Shown piece after piece: positions 4,936 through 7,707 of a stretch of DNA of 43,955 nt. The DNA is from a virus, in UHGV virus genome UHGV-0152227; one strand, 5' to 3'. The stretch's first letter is position 1, and the number at the start of each line of letters is the position of its first letter. The position numbers and the translations under genes were made by a program. A model generated the notes under the pieces. It had not been told where the DNA came from, did no database searches, and worked only from the letters and a program-made list of their open reading frames with translations.

Positions 4936-7707
4936 TTACTCTTTGCTTAACATCTTCTCCCCCTCAAGATATTTGAGACGTTCTTCAATCCTGTCACAAC
5001 GCCTGCGCTGATAAGCAGCTTCCAGCCACAAGCATTCATCAACACGTATACCCCAACGGTTTCCGGCCGGAGTAACCAAGGTTTTCTCGCCAGTATCATA
5101 TTCTTCTTTCTTGATGTAGCTATTCTCGACACCGTCCGCATCCGTATAAGTAATGGTAACATCACGCCAAGCCATTACAGGCTCATACTGGTCTTCCCAT
5201 TCGTCGTAGCACAAAAGCCCGAAGCGAGTACCATCAATCCCGGCGGCAATAAATGCATCCCGCACCTGCTGCGCAATAATGCCATAATGCCAACGTGCTC
5301 TATCAGCGCCCTTAGCATCTACAGCTGATAGCCACTGGTAAACGATCAGGTTCACTTTCCCCCATGCGTCAAGTATCGCATCTGGTTCGAAACCCATCGA
5401 TTCGCTAAGTTGAGATATACTTAACGGGTCGCTCTTGAAACGCGCGTCTGATGTGTTGATGCTGCCTGTCGTTGCATATACAGTTGTCCACAAGCGTGTG
5501 CTGGTTCCACATGAGTATGTGTTCGTCTTGAACGGGCGCACAGCGCCGAGCACTTCAAGCGGCTGACCAATATAAGCAAGGTCTGTAGACAAAACAGGGG
5601 ATTTGAATAGCCAGCGTGAGTTAGTGTAGTCGTAAATGCCCGCATCTCCGGCAGCAGATACATGATACGTAACATCTCGCAGTGGGTTAGCAGTTTCAAA
5701 CTGAGACGCTGTAGCAGTGGCATTAGATAACTTAGCCAGACCACTGGACAATTCAAGGTGATTAGTAACCGAACCATCGTCGTTTATTTTACCGATAGTC
5801 AATAAGCCGCTATTAGTTACGATATCGTAAGTTGAATCCAGAATAATGCCGGGCTGAGAACTTGACGTAGTCTTAATATGCATGCTCTGTTGCGGCATCA
5901 GGGTATAGAATGACGTTTCACGACCAGTGTCACCGTCCGGGATACCGTTGGTATTTCCCATTACAAGATCATACCCACCGACAATCATGCGGAAAAACAT
6001 CGCTTCCGGCTCATATGTCAGCTTTGTCGGATCTGGAGTTCCGGTATTTTCTGGATCGGCAATATCATACGCACGTCCAGCGCCAGCTTGAATTTGTTGC
6101 ACACCAAGATAAACTCCGTCCAGCGTGTACATATGCAAATATTTGCGAGTAGAGGAATACGCAGAGCCAGCCTGACAGAAATAGATTGTTGTTCCGTCAC
6201 ATGCAACAGCCTGCATATCACGGATAAAATCAGCTATCTCAAACTCAAAAGTTGCCGCATTACGATAGTCATAGCCGTATTCATCTGGGTTAACGAACAC
6301 ACTGGTATGAAAGACCTTCACGTAATAACGCAACTGATCTGGTGTACCAGATTCCTCACCAGGGCCGACATATCGTTTTGCTGTGGTTATTAACCATGTA
6401 CTGGTCGGGTCAGTGCAAAGTACATTGACATGGTTTAAATATGTGTCATCCCAGATTCGGAAAAACTCTGGAGTAATTGCCGCACCGGATACTGGTGTGA
6501 ATCGGGCAAGGTACTGCGCACGTTGATCGCCTTTCGATACTCCTGCCAATCCCCATATCTGCAATCGCCCCCGCGTATTACGGAAACCGATACGACCAAT
6601 GGTCAATCCCAGTGATTGGTGCCCTATATCAAAACTACCCTGTGTCTCCCATAGCGGCATCAGCGTATCCTGACCAAACCAGTTATAGGCAACAATTTTA
6701 TTAATTTCGTCGTTACTAGCTGCAGAACCGCTGACATTTTGCAGCGTATAAAGAATATTGTCGTAATAATCAAGGACGGCTCCCTGAATTGTCGTGTTTT
6801 TAATAGTTGCAAGCCTCAAACCAGATTTAACATGATTTGGCGTTGATGGTCTGAAACCGCTAATAACACCTTTTTTTCTTGTCTGCATCCTTGATTCTGG
6901 GAATTCATCATCAGGCAACAGCTTCACTGGATAACGGAAGTAACCATTAAAATATTTATTTTTAGTGAAATCCTTCGTTGTTTGAAAAGTTCTACCCTGC
7001 AGATCAATTACTTTCCCTGTATGAGATTCTTCAAGGCTCTCAAAAGCAGCATCGTCATTCGTCGCTCTCCCTCCATACTGACCATCACCTACAGCACCAA
7101 AATCTTTAGGGCTAACTGTGTCACGCATCTTATCCTGGAACGTTCTATATACCGCGCCTGAACCATACTGGATAAACCATCCGAAACCACCGACAACACC
7201 AGCAATTGCAGCATCCACATACTTACGCATTGAGCGATTATTTACAGCATCCTGCTCAAGTGATGGATCTGCAAGGTTAGAAATTCTGTTTTGCTTTGCA
7301 TCGTAATATTTTGCAAGCAAAGATGGTTTCATCAATGCACGTCTGAACCACCCAAAACATTGCTGGATCAGCATCGTCAGGTAGTCAAAGGCATCTTCAT
7401 GCACTTCGGGGAAAAATTTTCCCTGATTGCGAAGGTCTGTCTCCTGCACTACATCAAGCACACGATCTATCGTAATTCGCCATCCAGCAGCAAGCGGCGA
7501 CGGAAGAACAACAGAACCGCCACTATAAGTGCCCGCCCCAGTTACCGTATAACCGGTATCCAGAACCAATTCTGTTACGTTCCCGTTCAGGTCAGACACC
7601 TGAACAACCAGGTCTGATTTTCTGAAAATTCGAAAAGTATACGGAAACGATGTCGTAACTCCGTTACCGGTGTATTCGTTGTGGTCAACTTCGGTTGAGA
7701 CCGTCAT
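4936..7707 (-). CDS. Tailspike: T7 gp17-like N-terminal adaptor, pectate-lyase-like depolymerase core, C-terminal S74-type intramolecular chaperone domain
   Basis: ATG 7707 with GGAG RBS; N-terminus resembles T7 tail fibre N-domain; DFGAVGDGQYGGRATNDDAAF beta-helix start; C-terminal ~170 aa with Ser/Lys dyad SDARFK. Confidence 0.75.
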   Translation of the reverse strand: MTVSTEVDHNEYTGNGVTTSFPYTFRIFRKSDLVVQVSDLNGNVTELVLDTGYTVTGAGTYSGGSVVLPSPLAAGWRITIDRVLDVVQETDLRNQGKFFPEVHEDAFDYLTMLIQQCFGWFRRALMKPSLLAKYYDAKQNRISNLADPSLEQDAVNNRSMRKYVDAAIAGVVGGFGWFIQYGSGAVYRTFQDKMRDTVSPKDFGAVGDGQYGGRATNDDAAFESLEESHTGKVIDLQGRTFQTTKDFTKNKYFNGYFRYPVKLLPDDEFPESRMQTRKKGVISGFRPSTPNHVKSGLRLATIKNTTIQGAVLDYYDNILYTLQNVSGSAASNDEINKIVAYNWFGQDTLMPLWETQGSFDIGHQSLGLTIGRIGFRNTRGRLQIWGLAGVSKGDQRAQYLARFTPVSGAAITPEFFRIWDDTYLNHVNVLCTDPTSTWLITTAKRYVGPGEESGTPDQLRYYVKVFHTSVFVNPDEYGYDYRNAATFEFEIADFIRDMQAVACDGTTIYFCQAGSAYSSTRKYLHMYTLDGVYLGVQQIQAGAGRAYDIADPENTGTPDPTKLTYEPEAMFFRMIVGGYDLVMGNTNGIPDGDTGRETSFYTLMPQQSMHIKTTSSSQPGIILDSTYDIVTNSGLLTIGKINDDGSVTNHLELSSGLAKLSNATATASQFETANPLRDVTYHVSAAGDAGIYDYTNSRWLFKSPVLSTDLAYIGQPLEVLGAVRPFKTNTYSCGTSTRLWTTVYATTGSINTSDARFKSDPLSISQLSESMGFEPDAILDAWGKVNLIVYQWLSAVDAKGADRARWHYGIIAQQVRDAFIAAGIDGTRFGLLCYDEWEDQYEPVMAWRDVTITYTDADGVENSYIKKEEYDTGEKTLVTPAGNRWGIRVDECLWLEAAYQRRRCDRIEERLKYLEGEKMLSKE

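What the first reader, a model, noticed from the sequence alone, without database searches (positions are those of the whole stretch)
4936..7707. Tailspike combines a T7-type adaptor, a beta-helix depolymerase and a self-cleaving C-terminal chaperone domain
The N-terminus resembles the T7 gp17 tail-attachment domain, the centre starts with a pectate-lyase-type DFGAVGDG motif typical of capsule or O-antigen depolymerases, and the last ~170 aa look like an S74 intramolecular chaperone with a Ser-x4-Lys dyad (SDARFK). This is the K1F endosialidase layout with a different catalytic core, and the substrate is probably the same polysaccharide the neighbouring acetyltransferase would modify.
Basis: partly seen in the sequence, partly recalled or inferred. 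Interest (0 to 1): 0.5.

Follow-up and report, generated by a model that had tools for sequence, protein, structure and literature searches.

The report
Propeller tailspike for a teichoic-acid-like capsule
This prophage tailspike is built like the K1 endosialidase spike, but its receptor-binding core is a five-bladed beta-propeller, not a beta-helix, and it is found only in E. coli with the K18/K22 ribitol-phosphate capsule, next to an acetyltransferase that may explain how K18 differs from K22.

Summary
The 923-aa ORF at 4936-7707 (-) is real, and it is the tailspike of a complete epsilon15-like prophage of E. coli.

- **C-terminal chaperone.** The last ~200 aa are a bona fide S74 intramolecular chaperone. 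Ser753 and Lys758 align with the K1F endosialidase catalytic dyad.
- **N-terminal adaptor.** The N-terminal beta-sandwich has the T7 gp17 adaptor fold. Its close relatives, however, are epsilon15 gp20 and Carin-1 Dpo31, and it fails the Pfam T7-tail threshold.

The third call is wrong. The centre is not a beta-helix. DFGAVGDG belongs to a small endosialidase-type cap, followed by a five-bladed beta-propeller. This propeller is homologous to the wall-teichoic-acid-binding platform of staphylococcal phage receptor-binding proteins (phi11, 80alpha, P68).

Among 5,426 complete E. coli genomes, this propeller occurs on three different spike backbones. It is found only in genomes carrying the K18_K22 capsule locus (ribosyl-ribitol phosphate), in 15 of the 19 that have it.

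The neighbouring NeuO-like acetyltransferase is also confined to K18_K22 genomes, where 7 of 15 strains carry it. It has a hypervariable 8-nt repeat. That makes it a candidate for the unidentified off-locus gene that distinguishes K18 from K22.

Capsule specificity is inferred from genome association. Whether the propeller cleaves the capsule or only binds it is untested.

The parts
4936..7707 (-). Tailspike ORF, 923 aa (103 kDa precursor), stop codon included
   Evidence: ORF list. PHROG tail-spike families, E down to 3e-192. The exact protein sits in a 44-member E. coli cluster named only 'tail fiber domain-containing protein'.
7447..7707 (-). aa 1-87: N-terminal beta-sandwich virion adaptor (epsilon15 gp20 / Dpo31 type, T7 gp17 fold)
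   Evidence: Dpo31 (28lx/8ck1) E 3e-34 over aa 1-214. AF2 pLDDT ~90 for the sandwich. Foldseek: Carin-1 E 3e-10, T7 gp17 7ey9/7boz rmsd 2.0 A over 84 aa. hhalign against T7-like N-termini: probability 80%, E 1.3e-5.
7108..7446 (-). aa 88-200: helical neck carrying the podovirus fibre motif DAxxNRISNLADP (aa 136-148). Module homology with other spikes ends at aa 209.
   Evidence: Predicted long helix aa 86-126. The motif matches PF03906 positions 123-149 and fibres of PhiM1, P-SCSP1u and others. Nucleotide identity to K1-type prophage spikes stops at aa 209.
6928..7107 (-). aa 201-260: small cap domain (End_N_terminal-like) containing DFGAVGDG (nt 7081-7104)
   Evidence: Pfam End_N_terminal: E 0.11 for the query, but 23/46 family members hit it. 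The family profile matches endosialidase residues 6-55 at E 4e-7. Model pLDDT 81-94.
5893..6840 (-). aa 290-605: five-bladed beta-propeller receptor-binding domain. Invariant residues are Q308, G362-H363-Q364, W385, D480, Q499, D504, Y509, E566 and E568.
   Evidence: 20 strands, 5 x 4, mostly pLDDT >90. Foldseek top hits are 80alpha gp61, NF5 RBP, phi11 Gp45 and the P68 fibre, E ~1e-11. A propeller-only profile matches P68 at E 9e-10 and phi11/80alpha at E 1e-8 over the whole domain. 17/46 homologues hit PF21311. Conservation.
5548..5892 (-). aa 606-720: beta-rich stalk between propeller and chaperone
   Evidence: Seven predicted strands, pLDDT 80-93. The motif RxVxxHVSxxGDAGIYDxTNxRW is conserved across the family. 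Its C-terminal end aligns with the stalk end present in 3GW6.
4939..5547 (-). aa 721-923: S74 intramolecular chaperone region. Nucleophile Ser753 (nt 5449-5451), base Lys758 (nt 5434-5436). Predicted released fragment: 170 aa, 19.5 kDa.
   Evidence: PF13884 45.4 bits. 3GW6 E 1.5e-30, with S753 and K758 opposite positions 911 and 916. S and K invariant in 31/31 homologues. Masses.
3979..4830 (+). Convergent neighbour: NeuO-like left-handed-beta-helix O-acetyltransferase, 283 aa, GC 36.5%
   Evidence: Best solved match is NeuO 3JQY, E 1.6e-18. The NeuO catalytic residues His147/Trp171 align with His163/Trp188. The gene is found only in K18_K22 genomes. GC.
4754..4823 (+). Octanucleotide VNTR (GCACAGCA)n at the 3' end of the acetyltransferase gene, encoding an (STAAQQHS)n tail
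   Evidence: TRF: 8.9 copies, 96% matches. 2.6 to 52.6 units in eight otherwise >=99.7% identical alleles, giving ORFs of 267-416 aa.
4836..4862 (.). Terminator-like hairpin on both strands between the two convergent genes
   Evidence: 10-bp stem with 5 GC pairs, T-rich tails on both strands.

Best explanation
This is the trimeric tailspike of an epsilon15-like temperate podovirus of E. coli, assembled from exchangeable modules.

(1) A beta-sandwich with the T7 gp17 fold, plus a helical neck, plugs the spike into the tail.

(2) After a recombination junction at the DFGAVGDG motif comes a small endosialidase-type cap and a five-bladed beta-propeller. This propeller is the receptor-binding domain. 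It is homologous to the platform of the phi11, 80alpha and P68 receptor-binding proteins, which recognise ribitol-phosphate wall teichoic acid. I infer that here it recognises the K18/K22 group-2 capsule, a ribosyl-ribitol-phosphate polymer that resembles teichoic acid. Recognition would occur in the central cavity, which is lined by invariant Gln308, His363/Gln364, Gln499, Asp504 and Glu566/Glu568. It probably also depolymerises the capsule, so that a short-tailed phage can reach the outer membrane.

(3) A beta stalk is folded and trimerised by the C-terminal S74 chaperone. The chaperone then cuts itself off at Ser753, using the Ser753/Lys758 dyad. This leaves an 83.6-kDa mature spike and a 19.5-kDa fragment.

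(4) The convergent neighbour gene encodes a cytoplasmic NeuO-like O-acetyltransferase that acetylates the same capsule, converting K22 to K18. It carries a slippage-prone 8-nt repeat that varies its C-terminal tail. This mirrors the endosialidase/NeuO pair of prophage CUS-3 in K1 strains.

Shown here: the domain architecture, the folds, the dyad and the genome association. Inferred: capsule binding, cleavage, autoprocessing and the acetylation target.
For: Architecture: (details under 'parts').

Modularity: close homologues of the centre (67-80% identity) carry P22 head-binding, T7-tail or TSP1-type N-termini, and one lacks S74. They also occur in myovirus baseplate contexts.

The receptor is not the O-antigen: lysogen PAR is O75 and lysogen EC0026B is O7.

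Capsule link: both lysogens have a kps locus whose region 2 encodes a 378-aa protein, a bifunctional cytidylyltransferase/SDR enzyme of the CDP-ribitol-synthase type (my reading of the annotation) and a TagF-like polymerase. This allele is present at >=99% identity in 19 of 5,426 genomes, and a second allele at 88% identity is present in 113. Protein identities between the two alleles are 97.09, 98.91 and 82.11%. These equal the K18_K22-versus-K100 values in the kTYPr supplement (97.098, 98.908, 82.13). EC958, typed K100, carries the abundant allele. The rare allele is therefore K18_K22.

Every one of the 15 genomes holding this propeller lies among those 19. Six hold it on the epsilon15 backbone at 99% identity and nine on a P22-type spike at 72%. 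None of the 113 K100 genomes has it.

A third, divergent propeller spike sits on the same adaptor, next to the same acetyltransferase, in five further K18_K22 genomes only.

The acetyltransferase occurs in 11 records, all K18_K22. Its catalytic His and Trp are conserved.

Precedent: the same prophage family in K1 strains carries an endosialidase spike at the same locus.

Literature: K18 is acetylated K22, the two have identical kps clusters, and the acetyltransferase is 'probably... outside of the capsule locus' (PMC13171606).
Against: No biochemical data exist for this protein or any close homologue. No isolated phage carries the domain; the best match is phage Pollock at 26% identity.

The nearest solved homologues (phi11 Gp45, P68 fibre) are described only as binders, not enzymes. 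Depolymerase activity is therefore a guess based on podovirus biology.

The query itself does not reach any Pfam propeller threshold. Only its relatives and its family profile do.

The structure is a monomer AF2 model. I could not inspect coordinates, so the blade count and the 'central cavity' placement come from the DSSP strand order plus alignment to phi11 and P68.

The capsule association may be inflated by clonal relatedness among the 15 K18_K22 strains; several have very similar genome sizes.

The K-type assignment rests on matching published pairwise identities, not on a typed reference genome in the searched collection.

Four K18_K22 genomes have no such spike.
Confidence: 0.7

Rival explanations
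1. One reading: the central domain is a right-handed parallel beta-helix (pectate-lyase type) depolymerase that acts on capsule or O-antigen.
For: The DFGAVGDG motif also opens many beta-helix spikes. The family profile touches polygalacturonases and the phiAB6 and Sf6/P22-type spikes, but only over this ~25-50-residue motif. Other spikes on the same adaptor are annotated GH28-related.
Against: No PF12708 or other beta-helix Pfam hit for the query. The AF2 model is a propeller at pLDDT >90 through most of aa 297-602. The top 50 PDB and BFVD fold matches are all propellers or propeller-containing phage proteins. Full-length profile alignment to five-bladed propellers of known structure.
Confidence: 0.02
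2. The propeller is a pure adhesin. It binds the K18/K22 capsule (or a sugar-phosphate epitope) reversibly without cleaving it, as proposed for phi11 Gp45 and P68. Capsule penetration would then depend on other factors or on patchy capsule.
For: The closest solved homologues are described as WTA-binding platforms with no reported enzymatic activity. The invariant residues are shared with them. The literature says the role of n-bladed propellers in phage 'depolymerase' sets is unclear (PMC12491483).
Against: Known capsule-specific podovirus spikes, including the endosialidase on this same prophage backbone, are enzymes. A constellation of His, Asp, Glu and Gln at the mouths of the innermost strands, kept invariant across homologues of ~25% identity from very different hosts, looks more like a catalytic or metal site than a ligand-specific lectin site.
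Confidence: 0.35
3. The link to the K18_K22 capsule is a by-product of clonal descent. The real receptor would be something else, such as LPS core, an outer-membrane protein or another glycan.
For: Only 15 strains are involved and several have near-identical chromosome sizes. Four K18_K22 genomes lack the spike. Prophage content is inherited vertically.
Against: The lysogens span at least two O-types, O75 and O7. Their genome sizes range from 4.72 to 5.31 Mb and they come from six countries on four continents, plus Australian wildlife hosts. Three different spike backbones or RBD variants at two different prophages all map to the same 19 genomes and to none of the 113 genomes with the 88%-identical K100 locus. 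Several strains carry two prophages with this RBD family. A capsule-modifying type of enzyme travels with the spike.
Confidence: 0.15
4. The core is a diverged endosialidase (six-bladed sialidase propeller) acting on polysialic acid.
For: K1F-like layout. An End_N_terminal-like cap. The K1E and K1F endosialidases appear among weaker fold matches (rank 29, rank 7). The neighbour resembles NeuO.
Against: The query has no PF12219 hit. Staphylococcal five-bladed platforms score about six orders of magnitude better than 3GVJ. 20 strands give five blades. The two lysogens examined directly have a ribitol-phosphate-type kps region 2, not neu genes. K1 strains with this prophage family carry a different, true endosialidase spike.
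Confidence: 0.02

Closest known systems
Coliphage K1F endosialidase (endoNF) tailspike
   Same: Same order of modules: virion adaptor, small N-terminal cap with the xFGAxGDG motif, beta-propeller, beta stalk, self-cleaving S74 chaperone. The chaperone is clearly homologous (E 1.5e-30) and the Ser/Lys dyad aligns.
   Different: EndoNF has a six-bladed GH58 sialidase propeller, a beta-barrel insertion and a genuine T7-type adaptor. Here the propeller is five-bladed and belongs to the PF21311 family, the adaptor is of the epsilon15/Dpo31 type, and the inferred target is a ribitol-phosphate capsule.
Prophage CUS-3 of E. coli K1 (endosialidase tailspike plus NeuO)
   Same: A temperate podovirus carrying a capsule-specific spike and a left-handed-beta-helix O-acetyltransferase for that capsule. 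The acetyltransferase contains a slippage-prone VNTR (PMC3046976). NeuO is the best solved match of the neighbour gene, with catalytic His and Trp conserved.
   Different: NeuO's repeat is a 7-nt unit at the 5' end and switches translation on and off. Here the unit is 8 nt at the 3' end, so it leaves the catalytic domain intact and changes only the length and exit frame of an (STAAQQHS)n tail. The prophage backbone and the capsule also differ. That CUS-3 is P22-like, and the position of neuO relative to its spike gene, come from my memory and were not checked here.
Staphylococcal phage receptor-binding proteins: phi11 Gp45, 80alpha gp61, P68 tail fibre (Pfam PF21311 Phage_RBD_prop)
   Same: Best fold and profile matches for the central domain over the entire five-bladed propeller. 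The motifs at the inner strands are shared: Q, GH, W, Q..D and E-x-E. Their ligand is a ribitol-phosphate polymer (GlcNAc-WTA), chemically akin to K18/K22.
   Different: About 12-15% identity. Those proteins have coiled-coil stems and C-terminal 'tower' domains and no S74 chaperone. They sit on siphovirus baseplates or a Gram-positive podovirus. No enzymatic activity has been reported for them.
Bacillus phage GA-1 neck appendage protein gp12
   Same: Best match in the viral structure library (E 4e-19). Its C-terminal S74 chaperone is solved as 3GUD and matches the query. A propeller followed by S74 therefore already exists in a Gram-positive podovirus.
   Different: Different adaptor and host. 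Its function is likewise uncharacterised. Only the predicted structure was compared.
Salmonella phage epsilon15 gp20 and Cobetia phage Carin-1 Dpo31 tailspikes
   Same: Same N-terminal adaptor family: epsilon15-like phages match at 74-75% nucleotide identity over the first ~116 codons, and Dpo31 matches at E 3e-34 over aa 1-214. Dpo31 D1 is a beta-sandwich, D2 a coiled coil, and a C-terminal auto-chaperone is cleaved off (PMC13317679).
   Different: Both have beta-helix catalytic domains. Dpo31's C-terminal domain resembles the phi29 gp12 type rather than S74.

Membership tests
Peptidase S74 / C-terminal intramolecular chaperone domain (PF13884) | Profile match above the curated threshold | tested here: met
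   45.4 bits against a cut-off of 22, E 9.8e-12, aa 753-823. 3GW6 E 1.5e-30 over aa 721-915.
Peptidase S74 / C-terminal intramolecular chaperone domain (PF13884) | Ser-x4-Lys catalytic dyad at the position of endoNF Ser911/Lys916 | tested here: met
   S753 and K758 align with positions 911 and 916 of 3GW6; the deposited chain has Ala at 911. The dyad is invariant in 31/31 aligned homologues.
Peptidase S74 / C-terminal intramolecular chaperone domain (PF13884) | Autoproteolytic release after trimer folding | not testable with these tools
   Prediction: 83.6 kDa plus 19.5 kDa fragments, blocked by S753A or K758A (masses).
Phage_T7_tail (PF03906), T7 gp17 N-terminal adaptor | Profile match above the curated threshold | tested here: not met
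   13.6 bits against a cut-off of 25.2, covering only aa 135-161. A family profile of the N-terminus finds no T7 gp17 chain in the PDB at E <= 10.
Phage_T7_tail (PF03906), T7 gp17 N-terminal adaptor | Same fold as the gp17 N-terminal beta-sandwich | tested here: met
   Foldseek hits 7ey9, 7boz, 8dsp, 7ey7 and 9jz0: probability 1.00, rmsd 1.9-2.3 A over 82-85 residues, E 1e-3 to 1e-2. hhalign is collinear over 135 columns, probability 80%, E 1.3e-5.
Pectate-lyase-like right-handed beta-helix depolymerases (PF12708 and relatives) | Profile match to a beta-helix family | tested here: not met
   No hit at E <= 1 for the query. Only 1 of 46 family members hits PF12708, and weakly.
Pectate-lyase-like right-handed beta-helix depolymerases (PF12708 and relatives) | Right-handed parallel beta-helix fold | tested here: not met
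   The AF2 model is a propeller. No beta-helix appears among the top 50 PDB or BFVD matches.
Phage_RBD_prop (PF21311), five-bladed beta-propeller receptor-binding platform | Profile match | tested here: inconclusive
   The query alone gives no Pfam hit. But 17/46 homologues hit PF21311, best E 1e-15. The family profile matches P68, 80alpha and phi11 at E 9e-10 to 1e-8 over the whole domain.
Phage_RBD_prop (PF21311), five-bladed beta-propeller receptor-binding platform | Five four-stranded blades closed by the N-terminal strand | tested here: met
   20 strands between aa 297 and 602. Top Foldseek hits are 6v8i, 9m7x, 5efv and 6iab, E ~1e-11. The blade count comes from strand order and alignment, not from inspecting coordinates.
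Phage_RBD_prop (PF21311), five-bladed beta-propeller receptor-binding platform | Binds a cell-surface polyol-phosphate glycopolymer | not testable with these tools
   Indirect only: exclusive co-occurrence with the K18_K22 ribosyl-ribitol-phosphate capsule locus.
Endosialidase (GH58) | Six-bladed sialidase catalytic propeller (PF12219) and a polysialic-acid host | tested here: not met
   No PF12219 hit. 3GVJ ranks 29th at E 1e-5. The two lysogens examined directly have ribitol-phosphate-type region 2, not neu genes.
Endosialidase (GH58) | N-terminal cap (PF12218 End_N_terminal) | tested here: inconclusive
   E 0.11 for the query. 23/46 homologues hit it. The family profile matches endoNF residues 6-55 at E 4e-7.
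NeuO-type polysaccharide O-acetyltransferase (neighbour gene) | Left-handed-beta-helix acetyltransferase with the catalytic His and Trp | tested here: met
   3JQY E 1.6e-18. His163 and Trp188 align with NeuO His147 and Trp171. Pfam Hexapep is below its cut-off at 22 against 27 bits.
NeuO-type polysaccharide O-acetyltransferase (neighbour gene) | Prophage-borne, with an intragenic VNTR that changes by slippage | tested here: met
   8-nt unit with 2.6-52.6 copies in eight alleles. MLI114 and MLI121 differ by one unit. Unlike neuO, the repeat is at the 3' end, so an on/off switch is not expected.

The most novel reading that the evidence does not exclude
The five-bladed propeller is a previously unrecognised class of capsule depolymerase. 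It would cleave the teichoic-acid-like ribosyl-ribitol-phosphate K18/K22 polymer, as a phosphodiesterase or a ribofuranosidase, in a central cavity built from the invariant His363, Asp504 and Glu566/Glu568. Because the same residues are conserved in the phi11, 80alpha and P68 platforms, those 'binding' domains might be teichoic-acid-processing enzymes too. Alongside this, the adjacent VNTR-bearing acetyltransferase would be the long-missing determinant that turns K22 into K18. That would make K18/K22 a second prophage-driven capsule form variation after K1/NeuO.
Probability: 0.3. Interest if true: 0.8.

Novelty: new variant of a known kind. Interest (0 to 1): 0.62.

Why it matters
Modular tailspikes with S74 chaperones are well known, and beta-propeller domains are already counted among prophage 'depolymerases', although their function in phages is said to be unclear (PMC12491483). 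Three things are new here.

1. A Gram-negative spike uses the propeller family that staphylococcal phages use for ribitol-phosphate teichoic acid. It is tied by genome association to the E. coli capsule that resembles teichoic acid. This suggests a glycopolymer-recognition module shared across the Gram divide.

2. The work gives a first candidate receptor-binding protein for K18/K22 capsules. That is useful for capsule typing, phage therapy or diagnostic reagents.

3. The neighbour gene is a concrete, easily tested candidate for a gap stated in the 2026 kTYPr capsule catalogue: K18 and K22 have identical kps loci and no acetyltransferase is known. If confirmed, in-silico typing could separate K18 from K22, and a second VNTR-tuned, prophage-borne capsule acetylation system would be established.

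Tried and rejected
- **Beta-helix reading.** Rejected by the Pfam scan, the AF2 model and two fold searches.
- **O-antigen as receptor.** I located the O-antigen clusters of both lysogens. They differ, O75 against O7. 64 other O75 genomes lack the spike, and EC0026B was not among the O75 wzx hits listed.
- **Diverged endosialidase.** Rejected.
- **Looking for a characterised phage with this domain.** None exists among 50,697 phage records. The best is phage Pollock at 26% identity, and the rest match only the cap motif.
- **Is the acetyltransferase always next to relatives of the propeller?** It is not in lytic or myovirus contexts. 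The K1-type sister prophage has no acetyltransferase at all. The gene therefore travels with K18_K22 lysogens, not with the domain as such.
- **Direct K-typing of the lysogens from the kTYPr supplements.** No accession matched. I used the published pairwise protein identities and EC958 instead.
- **Literature on enzymatic activity of staphylococcal propeller RBPs, or on a K18 acetyltransferase.** Nothing found.
- **A quirk of the word-indexed protein search.** It did not return the query's own cluster, and for the N-terminus it returned only short fragments. The exact look-up did find the cluster.
- **Model coordinates.** They are not exposed to scripts, so cavity geometry could not be measured.

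Full report
**1. Observation**

The window contains one long ORF at 4936..7707 on the minus strand, encoding 923 aa. DFGAVGDG is at aa 202-209. SDARFK is at aa 753-758, which leaves 170 residues after Ser753.

The window as a whole is a complete epsilon15-like prophage. It runs from the integrase, through the terminase, portal, major head protein, tail and internal virion proteins, to the holins and a GH19 endolysin. It is inserted next to yfgI, as in E. coli strain PAR, whose copy of this spike gene is 98.8% identical.

The exact protein exists in public databases in a 44-member E. coli cluster. It is named only 'tail fiber domain-containing protein'.

**2. C-terminal domain**

Pfam Peptidase_S74 is matched above its curated cut-off, at 45.4 against 22 bits. 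The solved K1F endosialidase chaperone 3GW6 aligns with aa 721-915 at E 1.5e-30. The chaperones of phage E1004 (9vvr), GA-1 (3GUD), T5 pb1 (4UW8) and others also match.

Ser753 and Lys758 lie opposite positions 911 and 916 of endoNF. The 3GW6 chain has Ala at 911, which from memory I take to be the non-cleaving S911A construct. Both residues are invariant in 31 of 31 aligned S74-bearing homologues. Cleavage at Ser753 would give an 83.6-kDa mature spike and a 19.5-kDa fragment. Autoprocessing itself cannot be tested in silico.

**3. N-terminal domain**

The first 209 codons are a widely shared module. They are about 95% identical at the DNA level to spikes of other E. coli epsilon15-like prophages and phages, including the endosialidase spikes of K1 strains such as CE10 and APEC O1. 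They are 74-75% identical to Salmonella epsilon15-type phages. Homology stops exactly at the GDG of DFGAVGDG, so the motif marks a recombination junction.

The closest solved relative is the tailspike Dpo31 of the marine podovirus Carin-1, at E 3e-34 over aa 1-214. In Dpo31, D1 is a beta-sandwich that attaches to the tail and D2 is a coiled coil (PMC13317679).

Pfam Phage_T7_tail is not reached: 13.6 against 25.2 bits, and only over a short conserved fibre motif at aa 135-161. Two other tests do support a distant relationship. A profile-profile comparison with T7-like N-termini is collinear over 135 columns, with probability 80% and E 1.3e-5. The AF2 model of aa 1-165 has a sandwich at pLDDT ~90. 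After Carin-1, its best matches include the N-terminal domain of T7 gp17 in several cryo-EM structures, at rmsd about 2 A over 84 residues.

'T7-type adaptor' is therefore right as a description of fold and function, but not as family membership.

**4. Central domain**

There is no beta-helix signal for the query.

A search of the central 526 aa found only seven close homologues (67-80% identity) in 5.8 billion clustered proteins. Each sits on a different adaptor: the P22 head-binding domain, a T7 tail domain, or a TSP1/gp66 N-domain. One lacks S74. A full HMMER scan of 1.84 billion representatives gave 81 relatives.

Of 46 aligned family members, 17 match Pfam PF21311, the five-bladed propeller platform of phage receptor-binding proteins. 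23 match the endosialidase N-terminal cap PF12218, and 15 carry S74.

The AF2 model of aa 166-725 has mean pLDDT 81.9, with the core mostly above 90. It shows a small alpha/beta cap at aa 205-258 and a low-confidence loop. Then come 20 strands between aa 297 and 602, and a further beta domain at aa 636-703.

Its best PDB matches are the 80alpha gp61, NF5, phi11 Gp45 and P68 receptor-binding proteins, at E about 1e-11. Generic propellers follow. The best viral-library match is the GA-1 neck appendage protein. A profile of the propeller alone aligns over the whole five-bladed domain of P68 (E 9e-10) and of phi11 and 80alpha (E 1e-8).

The family-invariant polar residues are Q308, H363/Q364, Q499, D504 and E566/E568. 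They sit at the starts of the innermost strands of blades 1, 2, 4 and 5 (strand order), and they are shared with the staphylococcal proteins. This is where the phi11 paper describes a central cavity able to hold GlcNAc (PMC4901313).

The 'beta-helix depolymerase' is therefore refuted. The propeller, however, belongs to a different family.

**5. What the propeller targets**

Only six of 20,395 records hold the full gene: strain PAR and five derivatives of EC0026B. PAR is O75 and EC0026B is O7, so the O-antigen is an unlikely receptor.

Both strains have a group-2 kps locus. Its region 2 encodes a 378-aa protein and a bifunctional cytidylyltransferase/SDR enzyme. I read the latter as the CDP-ribitol-synthase type, though the annotation does not name ribitol. 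The third gene is a 1,107-aa TagF-like polymerase.

This region is >=99% identical in 19 genomes and 88% identical in 113 others. The three protein identities between the two alleles are 97.09, 98.91 and 82.11%. These reproduce the K18_K22-versus-K100 values in the kTYPr supplement.

The abundant allele is that of EC958 (same protein accessions), and EC958 is typed K100. The rare allele is therefore K18_K22. K18, K22 and K100 are 'related ribosyl-ribitol phosphates' (Rodriguez et al. 1988, cited).

A sensitive blastn with the propeller-plus-stalk DNA finds 15 genomes in the whole collection. Six have the epsilon15-type gene at 99% identity, and nine have a P22-type 'phage tailspike protein' at about 72.5%. 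All 15 are among the 19 K18_K22 genomes, and none are K100.

EC0026B carries both spike types, each on a different prophage. In five further K18_K22 genomes, the same epsilon15-like prophage carries a third, divergent propeller-plus-S74 spike on the same adaptor.

Naive hypergeometric P values are 5e-41, or 5e-31 with the EC0026B derivatives collapsed. These ignore clonal relatedness. The use of three backbones, the two O-types and the wide range of genome sizes and sources all argue against pure descent.

Sister prophages of K1 strains carry an endosialidase at this locus. The simplest reading is therefore that the spike's receptor-binding domain matches the lysogen's capsule, and that this one is specific for K18/K22.

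The domain's solved relatives recognise ribitol-phosphate wall teichoic acid. That fits a ribosyl-ribitol-phosphate capsule, but it is an analogy and not a test.

**6. Binder or enzyme**

Nothing here shows catalysis. The staphylococcal homologues are described as binders. On the other side, a short-tailed phage must cross a capsule. Known capsule-specific podovirus spikes are enzymes. And the invariant acidic and histidine cluster is unusual for a lectin site that would have to adapt to different ligands. I put depolymerase activity at roughly even odds.

**7. The neighbour gene**

ORF 3979-4830 (+) converges on the spike gene across a terminator-like hairpin that reads on both strands, at 4836-4862. 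Its best solved match is NeuO, the CUS-3 prophage polysialate O-acetyltransferase, at E 1.6e-18. The NeuO catalytic residues His147 and Trp171 align with His163 and Trp188. Its GC content is 36.5%, against 52.8% for the structural genes.

The gene is found at >=99% identity in 11 records, representing 7 strains, and all are K18_K22. Eight other K18_K22 strains lack it.

The kTYPr paper states that K18 is the acetylated form of K22 and that their kps clusters are identical. It says the acetyltransferase is probably outside the locus, with no candidate known (PMC13171606). I found no paper naming one. This gene fits that description.

Its 3' end holds an octanucleotide repeat. The copy number is 2.6, 8.6, 16.6, 22.8, 42.6, 43.6, 50.6 and 52.6 in eight otherwise near-identical alleles, and two isolates from the same sampling site (Koulikoro, Mali) differ by one unit. 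Three 8-nt units make 24 nt, so every reading frame encodes the same (STAAQQHS)n peptide. Slippage therefore changes the tail length and the exit frame, giving 1-2 or 23-62 extra residues. It does not truncate the catalytic domain. This is unlike the 5' on/off switch of neuO, but it recalls the way NeuO activity scales with the number of its heptad repeats.

**8. Verdict**

The object is a new variant of a known kind of modular tailspike. Its interest comes from three points. One is the propeller family it shares with staphylococcal teichoic-acid-binding proteins. Another is its strong genomic tie to the K18/K22 capsule. The third is the adjacent candidate K18 acetyltransferase.

All functional statements about binding, cleavage, processing and acetylation remain inferences.

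Noticed in passing
window 4754-4823 (within ORF 3979-4830): A hypervariable octanucleotide repeat (GCACAGCA)n lies at the 3' end of the NeuO-like acetyltransferase gene. It has 2.6 to 52.6 units in eight alleles that are otherwise >=99.7% identical, giving ORFs of 267-416 aa. All three frames encode the same (STAAQQHS)n peptide, so slippage alters tail length and exit frame rather than switching the enzyme off.
   Followed up: yes
window 3979-4830; E. coli genomes listed: The acetyltransferase occurs only in genomes with the K18_K22 kps locus, in 7 of 15 strains. This is the pattern expected for the unknown off-locus gene that distinguishes acetylated K18 from K22 (PMC13171606).
   Followed up: partly
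L015:8184-11258 (E. coli MLI114, same prophage locus): A sister prophage carries the same adaptor (95% identity over aa 1-209) and the same acetyltransferase. Its 1,024-aa spike, however, has a divergent propeller (weak PF21311 hit) and an S74 domain only 31% identical. That variant is found in exactly five genomes, all K18_K22.
   Followed up: partly
Their tailspikes bear homologous propeller domains, about 69% identical at the protein level.
   Followed up: partly
window 4836-4862: A 10-bp-stem hairpin with T-rich tails on both strands lies between the convergent acetyltransferase and tailspike genes. It looks like a shared bidirectional terminator. In strain PAR the annotated acetyltransferase ORF reads through it into the 3' end of the spike gene.
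   Followed up: partly
window 7780-8160 (+) and 8461-9186 (+): The 126-aa ORF just upstream of the spike gene resembles the C-terminal half of the adjacent Bro-N protein. Compare ...LMKLLRDLDKDGFNVDGPLAELTALINYV...LQTHLDY with ...LMNLLNQLQEDGHDVSGAAAELTTMFCYI...IQTHAEY. This suggests a duplicated or split Bro C-domain.
   Followed up: no
window 3979-7707 versus 10888-26399: The spike and acetyltransferase region is AT-rich compared with the rest of the prophage. GC is 36.5% for the acetyltransferase, 40-46% for the cap, propeller and stalk, and 52.8% for the structural genes. This is consistent with a recently imported host-range cassette.
   Followed up: partly
L003 and L004/L005 (metagenome and SRA contigs): Close relatives of the propeller domain (71-78% identity) occur in quite different virions. 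One sits among several tailspike genes (NCTSP- and TSP1-type neighbours). Another sits in a contractile-tail baseplate cluster and has a non-S74 C-terminus.
   Followed up: no
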